From the sequence record NZ_CP137560.1: 64,000 bases of DNA; one strand, written 5' to 3'. The stretch comes from a plasmid. Every line of letters begins with the position of its first letter. Within the stretch, counting starts at the first letter, position 1. The position numbers were made by a program, and so were the translations under genes. Positions 1 to 7,433 of the stretch are shown piece by piece. The notes under the pieces are model-generated. The model was given only the letters and a program-made list of their open reading frames with translations, was not told where the DNA came from and ran no database searches.

Positions 1-174
1 ACTTCTTCTTAAAAACGTTGGCGTATTCTTCGGAAATCTCATCCTTGGCACTGATAATCTGCTCTTGGGCATCTTCCAAATCATCAAGCAAATCGTCTAA
101 AGCCGAGCATTTTTCGATAATGTTCAGTCCTTTTAACTTCGCCATTTCTTTATTAATATCAAACTTCTCCATTG
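1..174 (-). CDS. 5' end of an unknown protein-coding gene that runs off the window start. Its N-terminus reads MEKFDINKEMAKLKGLNIIEKCSALDDLLDDLEDAQEQ...
   Basis: Reverse-strand reading from the ATG at 174 stays open to position 1. A truncated copy of the first ~19 codons recurs inside repeat R2 at ~3963-4020. Confidence 0.4.
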
Positions 175-499
175 TATATCAATTAAAAATTCTGATGCAA
201 AGATAGCCCACACCTGTGTAAGTTCGTTTCACACAATAAAAAAATTTTTCATGCGCAATGATTTTTCTCACGATTCACCGAATTTTGCAGAAAAATGAAT
301 GAGCAAACAATGGAAATGGAAAAAGAACAATTAAACGGCAAGATAATGGATAGGGAGGATATCAAACATACCTTCAAAACGAGGTATCTCAATAGTGATA
401 AGGTAATCTTCTCTGAAAAGGGATGATTCGCAATTTAAATATAAAACACAGCATTCCGACAATAAAAGCAACTTTTATTTTGGTTTGTCCAAGTATATC
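123..499. repeat. Direct repeat R1, ~375 bp. Copy 2 lies at 3963-4336.
   Basis: Near-identical sequence by direct reading: ttcagtcc..ccattgtatatcaattaaaaattctgatgcaaagatagcccacacctgtgtaag...ttttggtttgtccaag in both copies. Confidence 0.9.
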
Positions 500-1122: not shown

Positions 1123-1398
1123 CCCCTTTTTTATTAAAGGAGATTTATGGCAAATTGATAAATATTCACAACATGCTCAATCCTTGTTTTTTTCAGGCTT
1201 GAGTATATTTTTTCTTATCTACGCAGAAAGACTGCATACCCATGTTGTAACTTTGCATCCGAAAACAAGAAATATGGATATTTGGAGGTCAAGCGATGCT
1301 TACTTCATTAATGAATCGCTAGTACTGTTGTAGTACTAGAGCTATGGGTACTCAGCATGGCTATTACCTCCAATTTTCATTGCTTGAAGATAGTTTAT

Positions 1399-1525
1399 GG
1401 CTGCGATAGCTCAGCTGGTAGAGCATAGTTTTGTGTGGGAATTACCATCATCAAGCTGGTCAACTCACACATACTGCTGCAATGAAAGCCTAGTGTCGCT
1501 GGTTCGATTCCAGCTTGCAGCCCCA
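1399..1525 (+). tRNA. tRNA-His(GUG)-like gene with a 50-nt insertion (1436-1485) in the anticodon loop immediately 3' of the GTG anticodon.
   Basis: G-1 (1399) pairs with discriminator C1522. A 7-bp acceptor stem GCTGCGA/TTGCAGC carries one G-U pair. T8 is present. D arm is GCTC-AGCTGGTA-GAGC. 5' anticodon stem TAGTT, loop TTGTG|...|AA, 3' stem GCCTA (4 of 5 pairs), variable loop GTGTC, T arm GCTGG-TTCGATT-CCAGC, and an encoded CCA. The insert folds into its own hairpins (TGTGTG/CACACA; TTACCA/TGGTcAA). Confidence 0.6.
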
Positions 1526-1624
1526 ATTATTAACATAGGTCAAGAGGGACTTACTACATGACATAAGATTGCAGTTCTTAATGGTTTGAAGTTCCTCTAT
1601 TACCTTATTATATAATAGATAATT

Positions 1625-3883
1625 ATGAACGATGAGAATTTATTGAAGGTTGCTTTGAGATACAAGGCTTTGTATCTTGATATTGAAAAAGAGGATATAG
1701 ACATGTCCTCAAAGATGACACCTGCTGTTTATTCCCTCACTGAACGCCTGAAAGAAAATGGCTTTTGTTTGAGCGAAGAACTTCTCCATGCACTAGACGA
1801 AGTACCTGTGGCGAAATTAGCAGATATAGTCTCTATCATAGAGGATGTGATGGGAGTTGGACTCAATTGGTCGTCTCTTGTCAAAGGATGGGACATGCCT
1901 ACAGGCGAGGGAGTCGCTGACCACTTTATAACCTGGGTTGCCAACATCATCAAGGGTGAACTGAATATCAAGGGAACTACCCTACCTTGTGGTCACTTGA
2001 TTCCAGATGGTACATTTCCACTGGAAAGATACAATGGATGCCCTTTCTGTGGAACACCGTTCAAAACAACAAATTATGTGTACAAGGGACAGGGAAGCAA
2101 GCTCAAGGAACTTAGGTTATTGAACAGAGAAGATTTGAAGGGAATATTTCTTTCGTTACTTACCTCTCCTACTCCTCTTGATATAACCCAAAAAGATTCA
2201 CTCAATCTGCTTTTGAATTGTTTTGAGGTTCCAGAAGGTACAGAAATTGGCATGAAGGAGACCATGATGCTGGTCATCAAACATTGGGTGTCAACAGGTC
2301 AAGCTGATAGAGCCATGGACTATTTCAAGACTCCAACAGACATCTTGAGATACCTATGGTTTGAGAAGACAGGGCACGTTCAGATCATCAAACCTTCAAC
2401 TCTTATGAATAATGCTCGAAGACTGGGAGCTCACATGAACTTTGTTTGTGACAAAGCCTTGACTTATCAAGAGCAGATGAAGCAGCAGCTCATGCTCAAG
2501 TATAGTCGTAAAAATTGCAAGACGGTGAGCAAATGGATAAACAATCTCCCGCTTTCGGCAATTAAGATGGCTGAGGACATGAACTCCAAGCGTGGTATGT
2601 GGGTAAGATTCATACGTGCCTTGCGTCTGGCGGAGTACGCCAAGAGAAAAGGTTATGAGAAGTTAGCTGATGTCATGGACATTTTCTATAAACAAAACTA
2701 CACCACGTGGCAGGGAAACTTAGATCAGGCTTCGAACAACAACCAGGCAGAAAAGGTTTTAGGCATGCTCAAGGAAAGACCAGGTTCATTTGCCAGATGT
2801 CTCTTTGCTACTATGTTGAGATTCGGTAGCTTAAGAACCTTGAAAGCATTTGGAGAGATTGCCGATGAGCTGCCAGCCAGACTACTCGTCTCCCTTGGCA
2901 ATGCAGCAGAAGGATATTTTGACATCGACTCCATCAGGTCAATCAAGACTATTACTGGAATCCAGAAGATCATCCCACACAACAAATTGCTTGCTCTATA
3001 CAGTAAGGTAGAACGAGAGAAAATGATTGAGGATGTGAATGGTATGTACAAGGACTCTATGTTCAGGCGTTTCAAGGCACAGGACACAGAGAGCAAGACC
3101 ATCTACATCGCCCCTGAGTTATATGACATACCTATTAGCGTCGGCGACCGATCAACAACCATACAGGATACCAGTTGTGCACTGATGGGAACTCGCTTCC
3201 ATATGGAAGGAGATGCGGTAAGGTTATTCTTGCAATGGGGAAAGGGGCTGCATGCCCAGCATTTGGACATGGACTTGAGCTGTCGCATCTCTTACGAGGA
3301 TAAGATAGAGGAATGTGCCTATTACAATCTTACCTGCACAGGTGCCAAGCATTCTGGTGACATACGTTCTATCCCTGAGATGGTGGGTACAGCAGAGTAC
3401 ATTGAACTGTCACTGCCAGAACTGGAGGCTGCAGAAGCTAAGTATGCCATCTTCACATGCAACGCCTACTCCTGTGGATCCTTATCTCCAAATCTTGTAG
3501 TTGGTTGGATGAACTCCGCCAACAAGATGAAAATATCAGAGAAAGATGGAGTAGCTTATGACCCTTCCTGTGTTCAGCACATGGTGAGGGTTGCCGACGA
3601 CAATCTCTCCAAAGGATTGGTATTCGGGGTTCTGGACATTGCCAAACGAGAAATCATCTGGTTGGAAATGCCTATCGCAGGACAGACATTGCGTTCGGCT
3701 AGAAGTAAGGATATAGAGGCTTTACTCATAAAATTACAAAGGAAACTCAAGATTGGTGAGCTTCTTAAGATGAAAGCCGAAGCACAGAGTCAGAAAATAG
3801 TAGGTTCTGCAGAACAGGCAGATGAAAGCTATACCCATGAGTGGGCATTTAATCCGGCAGAAGTAAGTAAGCTGTTATATTGA
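1625..3883 (+). CDS. Hypothetical 752-aa protein with a treble-clef-like zinc ribbon (CGH-x15-CPFCG) near the N-terminus. No family was recognised from sequence.
   Basis: Long ORF immediately downstream of the tRNA-His-like gene. CxH...CxxC cluster at residues ~120-140. Followed by a rho-independent terminator. Confidence 0.7.
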   Translation: MNDENLLKVALRYKALYLDIEKEDIDMSSKMTPAVYSLTERLKENGFCLSEELLHALDEVPVAKLADIVSIIEDVMGVGLNWSSLVKGWDMPTGEGVADHFITWVANIIKGELNIKGTTLPCGHLIPDGTFPLERYNGCPFCGTPFKTTNYVYKGQGSKLKELRLLNREDLKGIFLSLLTSPTPLDITQKDSLNLLLNCFEVPEGTEIGMKETMMLVIKHWVSTGQADRAMDYFKTPTDILRYLWFEKTGHVQIIKPSTLMNNARRLGAHMNFVCDKALTYQEQMKQQLMLKYSRKNCKTVSKWINNLPLSAIKMAEDMNSKRGMWVRFIRALRLAEYAKRKGYEKLADVMDIFYKQNYTTWQGNLDQASNNNQAEKVLGMLKERPGSFARCLFATMLRFGSLRTLKAFGEIADELPARLLVSLGNAAEGYFDIDSIRSIKTITGIQKIIPHNKLLALYSKVEREKMIEDVNGMYKDSMFRRFKAQDTESKTIYIAPELYDIPISVGDRSTTIQDTSCALMGTRFHMEGDAVRLFLQWGKGLHAQHLDMDLSCRISYEDKIEECAYYNLTCTGAKHSGDIRSIPEMVGTAEYIELSLPELEAAEAKYAIFTCNAYSCGSLSPNLVVGWMNSANKMKISEKDGVAYDPSCVQHMVRVADDNLSKGLVFGVLDIAKREIIWLEMPIAGQTLRSARSKDIEALLIKLQRKLKIGELLKMKAEAQSQKIVGSAEQADESYTHEWAFNPAEVSKLLY

Positions 3884-3888
3884 ATTTA

Positions 3889-3932
3889 TGAAGGAGACCT
3901 AAACAAGGCCTCCTTCATTCTTTTTGCCTAAA
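3889..3932 (+). terminator. Rho-independent terminator after the 752-aa ORF.
   Basis: Hairpin TGAAGGAG...CTCCTTCA followed by TTCTTTTT. Confidence 0.55.
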
Positions 3933-3962
3933 TTTTGAAAATCAGTCAATCTATGAAGACAT

Positions 3963-4336
3963 AATGTTCAGTTTTTTCAACTTTGCCATTTCTTTATTAA
4001 TATTAAACTTCTCCATTGTATATCAATTAAAAATTCTGATGCAAAGATAGCCCACACCTGTGTAAGTTTGTTTAACACAACAAAAAGTTTTTTCATGCGC
4101 AATAATTTTTCTCACGATTCACTTAATTTTGCAGAAAAAATGAATGAGCAAACAATGGAAATGGAAAAAGAACAATTAAACGACAAGATAATGGATAGGG
4201 AGTATATCAAACATACCTTCAAAACGGGTATCTCAATAGTTATAAGGTGATCTTCTCAGAAAAGGGATGATTCACAATTTAAATATAAAACACAGCATTT
4301 CGACAATAAAAGCAACTTTTATTTTGGTTTGTCCAA
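3963..4336. repeat. Direct repeat R2, copy of 123-499.
   Basis: See R1. Contains a truncated copy of the window-start gene's 5' end (MEKFNINKEMAKLKKLNIMSS*) and a TAATTTTG promoter-like element just upstream of the exonuclease gene. Confidence 0.9.
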
Positions 4337-4358
4337 GATTTGCATTAATTTTGCACAT

Positions 4359-5393: not shown

Positions 5394-6028
5394 AAAATCG
5401 ACAAATGAGCCAGTTGCTCCTTTAAGTTATTACTACCAGTAAATAATATGCCTTGTATTCCTACTTGGTTGGCGCCATCCACATTGCGTTGTCTGTCATC
5501 TATAAAGACGCTTTCGGAAGCATTGAGGTTATATCGTCCAAGCAAGAGGTTGTAAATCTCCGGATTGGGTTTCACCATCTTCTCCTCGCCACTCACCACA
5601 ATGCCATCGAACAGTTCAAAGAGGCGTGCATGGACTTCCTTTACTATCGGGAAGGTCTCATGCGACCAGTTGGTCAGGCAATAAAGTTGATATCCCCTAT
5701 CCTTTAAATCCTTCATGACATCATAGATTCCTGGAATCTCACCGGCATCCATGTCCTTATAACAATACCAATATGCCACGATATAAGGAGCATACTTGGG
5801 ATAAGCCTGTTTGAGTTCGAAGATACATTCTTTGATAGGCTTGCCCAAGTCTGTCTGGTCATTCCAGGAGTTGGTGACGATGTTATCCACCATCCACTTA
5901 GCCTTATCCTTATCACCATGTAACAAGGTTGTGTAGAGGTTGATACGCATCCAATTAACCAGCACCGAACCTACATCAAATATAATATTTTTATATGTAC
6001 TCATTGAATATAAGTGTCTAAGAAGCAA
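5390..6028 (-). CDS. HAD-IA family hydrolase (YihX-like sugar phosphatase type).
   Basis: N-terminal IIFDVGSVLV (FDxGxV motif I variant), LTNW, a downstream VFIDD-like motif, and an overall HAD layout. Confidence 0.7.
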   Translation of the reverse strand: MLLRHLYSMSTYKNIIFDVGSVLVNWMRINLYTTLLHGDKDKAKWMVDNIVTNSWNDQTDLGKPIKECIFELKQAYPKYAPYIVAYWYCYKDMDAGEIPGIYDVMKDLKDRGYQLYCLTNWSHETFPIVKEVHARLFELFDGIVVSGEEKMVKPNPEIYNLLLGRYNLNASESVFIDDRQRNVDGANQVGIQGILFTGSNNLKEQLAHLSIL

Positions 6029-6821
6029 AGCATGGGATAGTTCTGCTTCTGAAGGGAATAGGTCTTCAAAACTTCAACTTGAAGCTCCCAATTTAACAAA
6101 ATTCCAAAACTATCAGAATACGTTCCCATTTCATTTGCCATATATATATATAAATAATGTGCAAAAATACATCATTTAATTTAAATAGCGACTAAGAAAT
6201 GCAACTTTTTTAATAATAGTCTCGTTTTCTAGGAATTTTAGCAAGCTACTAAAGCAAATATTATATGGAATACGTTGCCTCGCTCCTTTGGAAAAACGAG
6301 CGATAAAAATGGAACTTACTTCAAGTATGATGCTTCTTTCAAGGATATGCCAGAATGATTAAGAAATTCATTCCTGCTTGGATGGTAGTCATGGAGAAGT
6401 TCTACAAGTTGGTGGTCTTCAACCATATCTATGCCAATGGCGATGACCACTTTGAAGAATTTTTCCGTCATTCAGATTGGTGATACCTATCAGCTTGTCC
6501 TTGGTTACAATCTGATGAATACTCCCCTGCACATTGAGGGTGATGACCTTGGACTAAATGGTGGTTTGTCGGAGCATACCGAGAAAAGTGATATTTATGA
6601 GCGGACAGGGCATCCTTGCAGACTGGTTTTTGAAAGGTTTGGTCAGTTGATAGGTTTGAGGAACAAACGTATCTCTGCAGTATTGGATATACATAAGAAA
6701 TTACCAGAAGAAGCGGAGCTGCTCATTAGTCATTCTTTCCTCAATGACAAGATGAAAAGAAACTACATACGAATCGTCAAGGGAAGAATCGATAGGTTCA
6801 ATAGGCAGTCAGAATGGCTTC

Positions 6822-7433
6822 CTATAATTCCAAGTCGAGCCAATCATCAAACTCAACATTCTGGAATGTATGAATGCCGAGGTTTTCCGCAGCGACACAA
6901 TTCTCCTGAAGGTCGTCAATAAACAACGATTCTTCAGGAACTATCGCTGCTTGTCTGATGACTTCCTCGTAGATTCTTGCATCCGGCTTGGAGAGATGGA
7001 GCCGCTGTGAGAGGAAGACTTTTTCAAAATAGTCTTCCACATTATGCCCCTGATAGGGGAATAACTTCTCCACACAATAATCCCAGTGAATGTCTATGGT
7101 GTTGCTCAATAGAAAGAGACGATAGCCCTTAGCCTTGAGCTTTAAAAGCCTGCGTTTCTTCTCATCGGGGATAACAACCAACATTCGATTGGCCGCTTCA
7201 ATAATTTGGTGATTAGAAACTGTTGTCAGGGTCAAGTTCCTTGCCGCATCGCAAAACTGTTCCGTAGAGATCAGTCCTTCACCTAACTCACCCATGAGTC
7301 TCTTTGCCTCTGGGTTAGAGTCTATCAGTTTCTCCATTCCAAGTACCTTGAAAGCATTCATACATCCTAGAGAATTCAACTTCACAAGTACGTTCCCCAA
7401 ATCGAAAATGATATTTTTGTATTGCATCTTCAT
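6822..7433 (-). CDS. HAD-IA family hydrolase (YihX-like). This is the intact parent of the pseudogene copy at 743-1122.
   Basis: IIFDLGNVLV, LLSNT, SKPD, FIDD motifs. Paralogue of the 5390..6028 product. Confidence 0.75.
   Translation of the reverse strand: MKMQYKNIIFDLGNVLVKLNSLGCMNAFKVLGMEKLIDSNPEAKRLMGELGEGLISTEQFCDAARNLTLTTVSNHQIIEAANRMLVVIPDEKKRRLLKLKAKGYRLFLLSNTIDIHWDYCVEKLFPYQGHNVEDYFEKVFLSQRLHLSKPDARIYEEVIRQAAIVPEESLFIDDLQENCVAAENLGIHTFQNVEFDDWLDLEL

What the first reader, a model, noticed from the sequence alone, without database searches (positions are those of the whole stretch)
1399..3883. tRNA-His(GUG)-like gene interrupted by a 50-nt structured insert in the anticodon loop, paired with a 752-aa zinc-ribbon protein
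The RNA gene has every hallmark of bacterial tRNA-His: an encoded G-1 pairing with C73, a 7-bp acceptor stem, canonical D and T arms, a GTG anticodon and an encoded CCA. However, 50 nt (1436-1485) are inserted immediately after the anticodon, and this insert folds into its own bulged hairpin. Bacteria lack a tRNA splicing endonuclease, and the insert is far too short for a group I intron. Three readings remain open: a novel tRNA-derived ncRNA, a decoy or anticodon-nuclease-resistant tRNA, or an unusual intron. A large unrecognised protein with a CGH...CPFCG zinc ribbon begins 100 nt downstream, which suggests an RNA-protein module.
Basis: partly seen in the sequence, partly recalled or inferred. 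Interest (0 to 1): 0.75.

Follow-up and report, generated by a model that had tools for sequence, protein, structure and literature searches.

The report
tRNA-shaped RNA carrying protein-binding handle
The "interrupted tRNA-His" is a tRNA-shaped non-coding RNA whose anticodon loop is replaced by a conserved structured "handle" that recurs in neighbouring RNAs and in the leader of the adjacent 752-aa gene, which points to an undescribed RNA-protein particle that is widespread in Bacteroidota and often sits in RtcB RNA-repair operons.

Summary
The Rfam tRNA model hits 1400-1522 with the anticodon loop replaced by a large insert. The tRNA-His and intron readings do not hold. G-1, C73, CCA and "GUG" are not conserved in homologues, and GUG is one strand of a covarying 7-bp helix.

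The insert is a conserved handle: helix A, AAUU/CAA internal loop, hairpin B, single-stranded (A/U)UACUUC tail. The window holds two more copies in circularly permuted form, at 1284-1371 and at 1535-1607. The second ends 18 nt before the start codon of the 752-aa gene.

In 83 Bacteroidota loci (62-99% protein identity in 81 Bacteroidales loci, about 50% in Flavobacterium and Cytophagaceae), 157 handle hits all lie on the gene's strand. Almost all lie within 1.5 kb upstream of the gene. Other handle RNAs carry a tRNA minihelix or a 23S GTPase-centre mimic as cargo.

The protein combines a degenerate RING zinc knuckle, an α-solenoid and a TerD-fold domain. RtcB lies within 6 kb in 21 of 83 loci and a WYL regulator in 27 of 83.

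Best reading: a Ro60/Y-RNA-like particle built from non-homologous parts, with autoregulation through the leader handle. Protein-RNA binding and biological function are inferred, not shown.

The parts
1248..1255 (+). TAACTTTG, a match to the Bacteroidetes -7 promoter box (TAnnTTTG). Candidate promoter of the RNA-protein transcription unit.
   Evidence: Read directly from the sequence. The consensus is from established knowledge of Bacteroides promoters. This is inference and was not tested. The sigma-70 scan does not apply to this phylum.
1284..1371 (+). Stand-alone handle RNA unit in permuted topology: GGAGGU-CAA-GCGAUGC-UUACUUC-[48-nt cargo hairpin]-GCAUGGC-UAUU-ACCUCC.
   Evidence: Model R2 hit, 35.4 bits, E 2.8e-5. 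Coordinates verified. Conserved in L010, L011, L012 and L016, with a covarying cargo hairpin.
1399..1525 (+). tRNA-shaped ncRNA (class 1). It has acceptor, D, anticodon-stem and T arms. The anticodon loop is replaced by the handle. This copy carries G-1 and an encoded CCA.
   Evidence: Rfam tRNA 43.2 bits. Model R1 149 bits. Covariation in all helices. The anticodon stem 27-31/39-43 is kept in register, 81.7% paired against about 30-38% out of register.
1433..1477 (+). Embedded handle. Helix A is 1433-1439 with 1464-1470. AAUU is 1440-1443. Hairpin B is 1444-1460. CAA is 1461-1463. The tail AUACUGC is 1471-1477.
   Evidence: Helix A is 87.8% paired with compensatory changes at all 7 pairs, and hairpin B is 92.3% paired, over 75 distinct sequences.
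1535..1607 (+). Leader handle in permuted topology: AGGU-CAA-GAGGGAC-UUACUAC-[33-nt loop]-GUUCCUC-UAUU-ACCU. It ends about 18 nt before the AUG. Candidate autoregulatory operator.
   Evidence: Model R2 hit, 47.2 bits, E 3.5e-8. The same element is found in 74 of 83 loci. In 63 cases it ends within 60 nt of the AUG. Helix A is 96.9% paired over 132 distinct sequences.
1625..3883 (+). 752-aa protein with four regions: an N-terminal region, a degenerate RING zinc knuckle (aa 117-145), an α-solenoid (aa ~165-485) and a TerD-fold β-sandwich (aa ~490-690).
1988..2053 (+). Zinc knuckle C122-x-H124...C139-x2-C142. It corresponds to the second zinc site of a RING (C3, H4, C7, C8). The first site is missing.
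   Evidence: These residues are invariant in alignments A5 and A6. Weak profile alignment to the TRIM32 RING.
3092..3694 (+). TerD-fold domain with the invariant acidic residues D548, D550, D579 and E591.
3890..3926 (+). Terminator-like hairpin GAAGGAGACC-UAAACAA-GGCCUCCUUC followed by AUUCUUUUUG. Probable end of the unit.
   Evidence: Read directly from the sequence. The automatic scan did not report it, probably because of the one mismatch in the stem.

Best explanation
Shown:
- 1399-1525 is a tRNA-shaped non-coding RNA. It is not a tRNA-His gene with an intron.
- Its anticodon loop is replaced by a roughly 45-nt conserved handle. The handle is a 7-bp helix A, an asymmetric AAUU/CAA internal loop, hairpin B, and a single-stranded (A/U)UACUUC tail on the 3' side of helix A.
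- The same handle occurs in neighbouring small RNAs. It is either embedded in this way or circularly permuted, opened in hairpin B and closed through helix A by a variable 'cargo' loop.
- The window has three copies in tandem upstream of the 752-aa gene: 1284-1371, 1433-1477 and 1535-1607.

Inferred:
- The three RNAs and the gene form one transcription unit.
- The 752-aa protein (zinc knuckle, α-solenoid, TerD-fold domain) binds the handle.
- It therefore forms particles whose RNA cargo mimics translation RNAs: a full tRNA body here, and an acceptor/T-arm minihelix or the 23S GTPase-associated centre in relatives.
- The leader copy ends 9-20 nt before the start codon. Through it, free protein would repress its own translation, with the small RNAs competing for the protein.

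Inferred more weakly:
- The particle acts in the response to RNA damage by ribotoxins, as a tether or decoy. This would parallel Ro60 with YrlA RNA in the rsr-yrlBA-rtcBA operon.
- The basis is that in a quarter to a third of loci the unit lies between or beside rtcB and a divergent WYL regulator, sometimes next to arrays of canonical tRNA genes.
For: - **The RNA is real.** R1 finds 38 strong class-1 hits, all on the gene's strand directly upstream. It also hits Flavobacterium johnsoniae and a Cytophagaceae genome, where the protein is only about 50% identical.
- **Covariation, embedded form.** 96.1% of cells are paired, 0 of 500 shuffles reach this, and slid controls give about 40%.
- **Permuted handle, pattern search.** 132 matches on the + strand against 2 on the - strand in 1.02 Mb. 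130 of the 132 lie within 1.5 kb upstream of the ATG. There are 55 distinct helix-A sequences.
- **Permuted handle, covariance model.** R2 gives 157 hits at E <= 0.001, all on the + strand. Helix A is 96.9% paired, with compensatory changes at all 7 pairs.
- **Position in the leader.** The leader copy ends 9-20 nt from the AUG in most loci.
- **Linkage in an independent sample.** In a metagenome sample, 20 of 25 hits that pass the full-handle test have the protein gene downstream. None of the 97 hits that fail it do.
- **Cargo mimicry.** tRNA body. 94-nt acceptor/T-arm RNAs. A 23S H43/H44 mimic at 65-71 bits.
- **Protein.** The solenoid carries many invariant arginines: R323, R328, R334, R391, R419 and R438. 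The C-terminal domain has the TerD fold.
- **Context.** RtcB in 21 of 83 loci and WYL in 27 of 83. In L018 the order is WYL(-), rtcB(+), RNA array, gene. F. johnsoniae has WYL, RtcB, TatD and RlaP nearby. Canonical tRNA arrays occur in about 10 loci.
Against: - No experiment or computation here shows that the protein binds the RNA, or that the RNAs are expressed and processed.
- No known RNA-binding domain was detected in the protein.
- The window itself has no RtcB or WYL gene, so the repair link is not obligatory.
- Three distinct metagenome contigs carry a good handle without the protein gene in the 1-2 kb available downstream.
- Distant relatives of the protein in Firmicutes (about 25% identity) show no handle or tRNA-like RNA upstream.
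- The conserved single-stranded tail and the circular permutation would also fit a catalytic or ligand-binding RNA.
Confidence: 0.6

Rival explanations
1. It is a genuine tRNA-His (or another tRNA) gene with an unusual short intron. An unknown endonuclease removes the intron and RtcB rejoins the exons, giving a decoding tRNA.
For: The window copy has G-1, C73, CCA and a GUG triplet. RtcB, the splicing ligase of archaea and metazoa, is encoded next to many homologous loci.
Against: - G-1, C73 and CCA are not conserved.
- GUG and CAC are the two strands of helix A.
- No conserved U33/R37 loop context remains after any excision.
- ARAGORN's parse is Val(CAC).
- The same motif occurs outside tRNA frames and in the mRNA leader.
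- Up to three such RNAs per locus share the same 'GUG'.
- The window and most loci lack RtcB.
- No bulge-helix-bulge or group I features are visible on inspection.
Confidence: 0.03
2. The handle is a catalytic or processing element. It would be a new small self-cleaving ribozyme, or the cleavage site of a host or encoded nuclease that dices the polycistronic transcript. The resulting 2',3'-cyclic phosphate and 5'-OH ends would be RtcB substrates, possibly allowing circularisation. That would explain why both circular permutations exist.
For: - About 14 near-invariant unpaired nucleotides (AAUU, CAA, UACUUC) sit around two covarying helices.
- The motif occurs in circularly permuted forms, as known for several ribozyme classes (prior knowledge).
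- It occurs in tandem arrays of up to 4 or more units.
- It is associated with RtcB.
Against: - No match to any Rfam ribozyme family, even at E <= 10.
- Tight linkage to one particular protein gene and to its start-codon region is not typical of free-standing ribozymes.
- Most loci lack RtcB.
- No cleavage site can be inferred from sequence.
Confidence: 0.1
3. The handle is a cis-regulatory aptamer. It would bind a small ligand or a different trans factor, such as a ribosomal protein, the WYL regulator or RtcB. The 752-aa protein would be only the regulated gene, not the binder.
For: The leader copy closes with a helix whose 3' strand abuts the ribosome-binding zone, which is a riboswitch-like layout. 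In some loci two AAUUACCU strands compete for one AAGGU strand.
Against: - A riboswitch would not explain several additional handle copies embedded in stable tRNA-like or rRNA-like RNAs in the same unit.
- WYL and RtcB are absent from most loci.
- The protein gene is the only constant partner.
Confidence: 0.1
4. It is a decayed tRNA pseudogene, or a tRNA gene disrupted by a small mobile insertion, with no function. The adjacency to the 752-aa gene is accidental.
For: The locus lies in a recombined, repeat-flanked region of the window. Default ARAGORN does not call it.
Against: The RNA is conserved with compensatory changes across orders of Bacteroidota. It is constantly positioned and oriented relative to the gene.
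Confidence: 0.01

Closest known systems
Ro60 (Rsr) with Y RNA/YrlA particles of the rsr-yrlBA-rtcBA RNA-repair operon (Chen et al. 2014, PMC4201824; Hughes et al. 2020, PMC7790460)
   Same: - One or more ncRNAs are encoded beside a large α-solenoid-containing protein.
- The RNA joins a protein-binding module to a tRNA-like domain through the anticodon-stem position.
- The operon is shared with RtcB and has a divergent ligand-sensing regulator.
- tRNA tertiary-interaction nucleotides are preserved.
- Different circular orientations of the tRNA-like part also exist among Y RNAs (PMC4201824).
   Different: - The RNA is not a YrlA family member. No window hit, and 28.9 bits against a gathering score of 69 in L018.
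- The handle (AAUU/CAA plus UACUUC) differs from the Ro60-binding helix and its GNCGAA motif.
- Here the RNA ends lie at a free 7-bp acceptor stem. In Salmonella YrlA the acceptor is closed by a loop.
- Further cargo types exist here (23S mimic, minihelix, simple hairpins), as does a leader copy.
- The regulator is a WYL protein, not RtcR with its CARF domain.
Intron-containing tRNA genes (bacterial group I introns in the anticodon loop; archaeal and eukaryal bulge-helix-bulge introns)
   Same: A canonical cloverleaf is interrupted in the anticodon region by extra, structured RNA.
   Different: - The insert is 45-60 nt, far below group I size.
- No bulge-helix-bulge motif is present.
- No anticodon loop could be regenerated by excision.
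- The insert is a motif that also exists outside tRNA frames.
Autogenous translational operators that mimic the protein's RNA target (E. coli thrS operator mimicking tRNA-Thr; ribosomal-protein leaders). From prior knowledge.
   Same: A copy of the motif carried by the presumed RNA ligands sits in the 5' leader next to the start codon of the presumed binding protein.
   Different: Regulation has not been demonstrated here. The operator is a circular permutation of the motif in the partner RNA. Partner RNAs and mRNA appear to be co-transcribed.
TerD-family and Prok-RING_4 proteins; NCBIfam NF041916 'MXAN_6230/SCO0854 family RING domain-containing protein'
   Same: The C-terminal domain has the TerD fold with conserved acidic residues. 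The zinc knuckle matches Prok-RING_4. The match to NF041916 covers aa 358-687. Distant relatives are annotated 'TerD family protein'.
   Different: All scores are below the curated cut-offs: 23.9 against 27, and 129 against 600. Only one of the two RING zinc sites is kept. As far as I could find, no RNA partner has been described for these families.
SPFH/Band-7-associated 'novel tRNA-like molecule' in RtcB systems (Burroughs & Aravind 2016, NAR 44:8525). Recalled from the abstract; the paper is not held in the library.
   Same: A tRNA-like ncRNA paired with a putative scaffold protein in RNA-repair gene neighbourhoods.
   Different: No Band_7/SPFH domain is found in the 752-aa protein. I could not check whether that paper also mentions this TerD/RING protein.

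Membership tests
Canonical bacterial tRNA-His | GUG anticodon at positions 34-36 of a 7-nt loop closed by a 5-bp stem | tested here: not met
   No 7-nt loop exists. GUG (1433-1435) pairs with CAC (1468-1470) in helix A. ARAGORN finds no gene by default and calls Val(CAC) in intron mode.
Canonical bacterial tRNA-His | G-1:C73 identity pair conserved among orthologues | tested here: not met
   The pair is present in the window and its close Segatella relatives. Position -1 is U and the discriminator varies in most other class-1 RNAs. True tRNA-His genes in related loci have a different acceptor stem.
tRNA fold (Rfam RF00005) | Score above the gathering threshold, with acceptor, D and T arms and the tertiary-interaction nucleotides | tested here: met
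   43.2 bits against a threshold of 29. U8, A14, G18 and G19 and GGUUCGAUUCC are present. The anticodon stem is kept in register. It therefore has the tRNA shape, although it has no decoding loop.
Group I intron in a tRNA gene | Intron of 200 nt or more with a P1-P9 core | tested here: not met
   The insert is about 55-60 nt. No Rfam intron hit, even at E <= 10.
Archaeal/eukaryal spliced tRNA intron | Bulge-helix-bulge (3-4-3) motif at the exon-intron junctions, plus an EndA-type endonuclease | tested here: not met
   Inspection of 1426-1492 and its folds shows a continuous 7-bp helix A and no 3-4-3 motif. Absence of EndA in Bacteroidota is prior knowledge and was not tested.
Y RNA / YrlA (Rfam RF02553) | Score at or above the gathering threshold of 69 bits | tested here: not met
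   No hit in the window. 28.9 bits in L018, spanning two adjacent tRNA-like genes.
Ro60/TROVE proteins | TROVE plus vWA domains | tested here: not met
   [not shown]
TerD fold | β-sandwich superimposable on TerD structures, with the acidic metal-site residues | tested here: met
   [not shown]
Prok-RING_4 (PF14447) / NF041916 | Score above the curated cut-off | tested here: not met
   23.9 against 27 bits, and 129 against 600 bits. The protein is related but not a curated member. Several homologues carry a precomputed PF14447 hit.
Known self-cleaving ribozyme classes (Rfam) | Match to a covariance model | tested here: not met
   No hit in 1150-1650 at E <= 10.
RtcB RNA-repair operon | An rtcB gene in the same neighbourhood | tested here: inconclusive
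   Present within 6 kb in 21 of 83 related loci, with WYL in 27 of 83. Both are absent from the 64-kb window.
Known anti-phage defence systems (PADLOC) | HMM match | tested here: not met
   0 families.

The most novel reading that the evidence does not exclude
This is a new class of modular ribonucleoprotein. A TerD/solenoid/zinc-knuckle protein is loaded, through a universal handle usable in either circular permutation, with an array of exchangeable RNA cargoes. The cargoes imitate the main ribotoxin targets: the tRNA body, the acceptor minihelix and the 23S GTPase centre. The particle would serve as a decoy or sensor platform for RNA-targeting toxins and would be coupled to RtcB repair. This would be a handle-plus-variable-part organisation outside CRISPR and snoRNPs. 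An alternative version is that the handle itself is a new catalytic RNA.
Probability: 0.3. Interest if true: 0.9.

Novelty: new variant of a known kind. Interest (0 to 1): 0.8.

Why it matters
- The protein family is encoded in at least 567 GTDB species representatives. These include abundant human-gut and rumen Segatella/Prevotella and the genetically tractable Flavobacterium johnsoniae. It is annotated only as 'hypothetical' or 'TerD family'.
- The handle RNAs are in no Rfam family, and tRNA finders miss or mis-call them.
- If the protein binds the handle, this would be a second, independently evolved solution to the design seen in Ro60/Y RNA: a protein-binding module fused to a tRNA mimic. 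That would help test what tRNA mimicry does in bacterial RNA-damage responses.
- It would also give a first molecular role to a TerD-fold/RING-like protein.
- The handle's tolerance of circular permutation and arbitrary cargo could be useful as an RNA scaffold.
- For annotation, these loci should not be called tRNA-His or intron-containing tRNAs.

Tried and rejected
- **Default ARAGORN** finds nothing. Intron mode gives an inconsistent Val(CAC) call.
- **Free-energy folding** of the whole RNA breaks the D arm and is only weakly better than shuffles, z -2.7. The comparative data carry the argument, not thermodynamics.
- **Rfam at E <= 10** over 1150-1650 gives only tRNA and noise.
- **PADLOC and PDB sequence searches** of the protein: no PADLOC family, and only one non-significant PDB match at E 1.8. 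The profile search against PDB gives only weak RING hits.
- **Origin of the tRNA body.** Comparison with canonical tRNAs in the loci was crude and showed no clear parent.
- **Phage origin.** Only 3 of 2.9 million viral contigs carry the protein.
- **Wider family.** Firmicute and other relatives at about 25% identity have no handle or tRNA-like RNA detectable with R2 or Rfam. One MAG has ordinary tRNAs upstream.
- **Literature.** No paper in the searchable library describes the RNA, or links TerD/Prok-RING_4 proteins to RNA. Burroughs & Aravind 2016 could not be opened, so prior mention there cannot be excluded.
- **Pairing of the tail.** Checked by eye, pairing of the UACUUC tail with neighbouring strands was inconsistent across loci. 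I therefore treat the tail as single-stranded.
- **Sigma-70 promoter scan** is not informative for Bacteroidota.
Full report
**1. The observation**

The window is Segatella (Prevotella) hominis DNA. Locus L010 from strain BCRC 81118 matches at 99% protein identity.

At 1399-1525(+) the sequence forms a cloverleaf:
- G1399 lies opposite C1522.
- The acceptor stem is 1400-1406 with 1515-1521.
- The D arm is 1409-1424 with G18 and G19.
- The T arm is 1498-1514 (GGUUCGAUUCC).
- CCA is at 1523-1525.

Rfam's tRNA model scores 43.2 bits (gathering score 29) and skips 61 nt in the anticodon region. ARAGORN finds no gene by default. With introns allowed it calls tRNA-Val(CAC) with a 32-nt intron and a long variable arm. 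The anticodon is therefore not defined by the sequence. ORF 1625-3883 encodes 752 aa containing CGH...CPFCG. The literal observation is confirmed.

**2. The RNA is conserved, but not as tRNA-His**

The protein has thousands of homologues. Every homologous locus first fetched had an interrupted tRNA-like gene of about 120 nt directly upstream, on the same strand.

A covariance model (R1) was run over 80 species-representative loci, mostly Bacteroidales at 62-99% protein identity.
- It found 38 strong full-length hits, always upstream of the gene and co-oriented with it.
- It also hit Flavobacterium johnsoniae and a Cytophagaceae genome, where the protein is about 50% identical.

Across 75 distinct sequences, 96.1% of cells in the proposed pairs are paired. 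None of 500 shuffles reach this, and slid controls give about 40%. Compensatory changes occur in all five helices.

The canonical anticodon stem (27-31 with 39-43) is retained in register. It is 81.7% paired against about 30-38% out of register, with several pair types per position.

The 'His' features are not conserved.
- Position -1 is U in most RNAs.
- The discriminator varies.
- The 3' trailer is CAA, CUA or CAC rather than CCA.
- 'GUG' is conserved only as the 5' strand of a helix whose partner is CAC.
- Canonical tRNA-His genes in related loci have a different acceptor stem.

**3. What the insert is**

In all class-1 RNAs the anticodon loop is replaced by the same elements, in this order:
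1. a short U-rich linker;
2. helix A, 7 bp;
3. AAUU (sometimes CAUU or GAUU);
4. hairpin B, which usually starts ACC, UCC or GCC;
5. C(N)AA;
6. the 3' strand of helix A;
7. (A/U)UACU(U/C)C;
8. a variable stretch that returns to the anticodon stem.

In the window the coordinates are:
- helix A, 1433-1439 with 1464-1470;
- AAUU, 1440-1443;
- hairpin B, 1444-1460;
- CAA, 1461-1463;
- tail, 1471-1477.

Helix A is 87.8% paired and hairpin B 92.3% paired. Both-sided changes occur at every pair. Some RNAs carry two such units in tandem inside one tRNA frame (192 nt; L073, L075 and L086).

A second RNA class of about 94 nt keeps only the acceptor stem and T arm plus the same unit.

In L007/L018 a further RNA carries an 88-nt copy of the 23S rRNA GTPase-associated centre (H43/H44). 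It scores 65-71 bits against the LSU model. By eye it lies between the two half-sites of a unit.

I call the shared unit the 'handle' and the rest the 'cargo'.

**4. The handle also exists circularly permuted, including in the mRNA leader**

I aligned the 130 nt upstream of the start codon in all loci. Nearly all contain this arrangement:

5'-(A)AGGU-C(N)AA-[7 nt]-(A/U)UACUUC-[15-50 nt]-[7-nt complement]-AAUU-ACCU(U/C)-3'

This is the same order of elements, opened in hairpin B and closed through helix A.

A pattern-plus-complementarity search gave these results:
- It found such a unit within 260 nt of the ATG in 74 of 83 loci.
- Over 1.02 Mb it gave 132 hits on the gene strand and 2 on the opposite strand.
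- 130 of the 132 end within 1.5 kb upstream of the ATG, and 63 within 60 nt.
- There are 55 different helix-A sequences.

A covariance model of the permuted form (R2) gave these results:
- It gave 157 hits at E <= 0.001, all on the gene strand.
- 76 of 83 loci have at least one hit.
- Helix A is 96.9% paired over 132 distinct sequences. One pair, for example, reads CG 37, AU 35, UA 27, GC 21.
- Helix B scores lower, at 73%. The CAA and CCAA variants shift its register in the alignment.

In the window R2 hits two places:
- 1535-1607 at 47.2 bits. This is AGGU-CAA-GAGGGAC-UUACUAC-loop-GUUCCUC-UAUU-ACCU, ending 18 nt before the AUG.
- 1284-1371 at 35.4 bits. Its helix B is GGAGGU with ACCUCC.

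No Rfam family matches the handle, even at E <= 10.

**5. Linkage to the protein gene**

Inside the 14-kb loci and the 64-kb window, handles occur essentially only upstream of the gene.

As an independent sample I scanned metagenome contigs for a 20-nt handle pattern. The scan returned 120 stretches with 122 pattern hits:
- 97 hits lacked the rest of the handle, and none of them had the protein gene.
- 25 hits passed the full-handle test, and 20 of them had the gene just downstream.
- Of the other five, one looks like a chance match.
- The remaining four belong to three distinct contigs. These carry convincing 'orphan' handles, one with a tRNA-like T arm, but no detectable gene in the 1-2 kb available.

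Linkage is therefore strong but not absolute.

**6. The protein**

Sequence searches:
- Pfam gives only a sub-threshold Prok-RING_4 match at aa 118-143.
- NCBIfam gives a partial match (129 bits against a cut-off of 600) to the 'MXAN_6230/SCO0854 family RING domain-containing protein'.
- PADLOC gives no family, and the PDB sequence search gives one non-significant match at E 1.8.

The zinc ligands C122, H124, C139 and C142 are invariant. They align with the second zinc site of RING domains. The first site is absent.

An AlphaFold2 model (mean pLDDT 76, pTM 0.65) shows these regions:
- a small N-terminal region;
- the zinc knuckle;
- an α-solenoid at about aa 165-485;
- a β-sandwich at about aa 490-690;
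- C-terminal helices.

Distribution of the family:
- About 35 full-length clusters at 31-59% identity, plus a broad outer family of about 700-aa proteins at 23-30% identity.
- NCBI names the outer family 'TerD family protein' in Paenibacillus, Brevibacillus and others.
- Three outer-family loci showed no handle.
- The family is rare in viral contigs, at 3 of 2.9 million.

**7. Genomic context**

- RtcB lies within 6 kb in 21 of 83 loci, and a WYL-domain regulator in 27 of 83.
- The typical order is WYL (divergent), rtcB, RNA array, gene (L018).
- In F. johnsoniae the neighbours are WYL, RtcB, TatD and the RNA-ligase-associated nucleotidyltransferase RlaP.
- About ten loci also carry arrays of 3-11 canonical tRNA genes: Arg-ACG, His, Gln, Ser, Tyr, Phe, Thr and Glu.
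- Other loci sit among defence-type genes, such as AbiEii, helicases and PLD.

The window has neither RtcB nor WYL. There the unit runs from a Bacteroidetes-type -7 box (TAACTTTG, 1248-1255) to a hairpin plus U-run at 3890-3926. Both were read from the sequence and neither was tested.

The unit lies between diverged direct repeats. 117-493 matches 3961-4337 at 94%, and 481-1122 matches 6562-7200 at 96%. This is the arrangement expected from single-crossover integration of a circular donor. In S. copri the system is on an extrachromosomal record (L011).

**8. Mechanism**

Shown:
- There is a family of structured RNAs with a common handle, in two circular permutations.
- Their cargo includes faithful tRNA and 23S mimics.
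- They are obligately positioned upstream of one protein gene, and one copy abuts its start codon.

Inferred:
- The protein binds the handle and forms particles with these RNAs.
- The leader copy is an operator for autogenous translational repression, with the small RNAs as competitors.

Inferred more weakly:
- The particle works in RNA-damage or ribotoxin responses, like Ro60 with YrlA.
- For YrlA, a role as competitive inhibitor of an anticodon nuclease has been suggested (PMC7790460).
- Here the anticodon loop is absent. Any decoy role would therefore concern factors that read the tRNA elbow or acceptor, or the 23S GTPase centre.

Rivals are scored separately in the report: a true intron, a ribozyme or processing site, a riboswitch or another binder, and a pseudogene. 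The ribozyme or processing reading is the one I cannot exclude. It is favoured by the permutation, the invariant unpaired bases and the RtcB link. It is disfavoured by the tight coupling to one gene and its start codon.

**9. Comparison with known systems and novelty**

The closest known system is Ro60/Y RNA (PMC4201824). The design is the same, with a protein-binding module joined through the anticodon stem to a tRNA mimic in an RtcB operon. Every membership test fails, however:
- There is no TROVE or vWA domain.
- There is no YrlA model match.
- The binding motif is different.

The RNA is not an intron-containing tRNA. The protein is a TerD-fold, RING-like family member with no described RNA partner.

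I found no description of the handle or of this pairing in the searchable literature. I could not read Burroughs & Aravind 2016, which surveys RtcB neighbourhoods and reports another tRNA-like RNA with SPFH proteins.

I rate the finding a new variant of a known kind. There is a real chance, about 0.3, that it is a new class of modular ribonucleoprotein.

Noticed in passing
window 117-493 vs 3961-4337, and 481-1122 vs 6562-7200: Two diverged direct repeats (94% and 96% identity) bracket the RNA-protein unit in the order A-B-[unit]-A'-X-B'. X is the exonuclease gene and two other genes. This is the pattern expected from single-crossover (Campbell-type) integration of a circular donor carrying A-B plus the unit. 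The upstream copy holds broken HAD-hydrolase ORFs.
   Followed up: partly
L018 5778-5865 (= L007 3781-3868): An 88-nt faithful mimic of the 23S rRNA GTPase-associated centre (H43/H44, the L11/thiostrepton site) is encoded among the handle RNAs just upstream of the protein gene. It scores 65-71 bits to the LSU model.
   Followed up: partly
L013, L014, L017, L018, L021, L042, L045, L051, L082 (e.g. L018 9499-10400): Arrays of 3-11 canonical tRNA genes (Arg-ACG, His-GUG, Gln, Ser, Tyr, Phe, Thr, Glu) lie within a few kb of the system, often with RtcB and WYL. Many of these isoacceptors are classic anticodon-nuclease targets, so the arrays may be tRNA-replenishment islands.
   Followed up: no
leaders of many loci, e.g. 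L041 5909-5985; window 1530-1607: The leader consensus UAUUAACAAGGUCAAGG...hairpin...AAUUACCUUUUAA resembles, from memory, the 3' end of 16S rRNA (GUAACAAGGUAGCC-h45-GGAACACCUCCUUU), sharing the 9-mer UAACAAGGU. It may be a mimic of the 16S 3' minor domain, or it may be coincidence.
   Followed up: no
L073, L075 and L086 (e.g. L073 5723-5914); L065 5615-5812: Some tRNA-shaped RNAs are 192-198 nt. In L073, L075 and L086 they carry two complete handles in tandem within one anticodon arm.
   Followed up: no
L209 ~6494-6590; L212 ~5830-5990 (= L194); L155 ~3282-3340: These contigs carry orphan handles, one preceded by a tRNA-like T arm, with no detectable 752-aa gene in the available downstream sequence. 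Neighbours include a WGR-domain protein, RsgA and a metallophosphatase. They may be decayed loci, or the handle may be used with the protein encoded elsewhere.
   Followed up: partly
L011 (NZ_CP152347.1): In Segatella copri HDE04 the whole system lies on a 182-kb record labelled extrachromosomal, consistent with horizontal mobility.
   Followed up: no
L093 19-447 and 4920-4979: One of the three viral-collection contigs carrying the protein has at least four handle units about 4.6 kb upstream of the gene, in addition to the leader copy. This is a larger, detached array.
   Followed up: no
L217 5145-5833: A distant relative of the protein (outer family), in a phage-like context with GIY-YIG endonucleases and an SNF2 helicase, has three ordinary-length tRNA genes directly upstream on the same strand. 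No handle is present.
   Followed up: no
window 1397-1561 (+): A 54-aa ATG ORF runs straight through the tRNA-shaped RNA. It is almost certainly spurious and could be mis-annotated as a gene.
   Followed up: no
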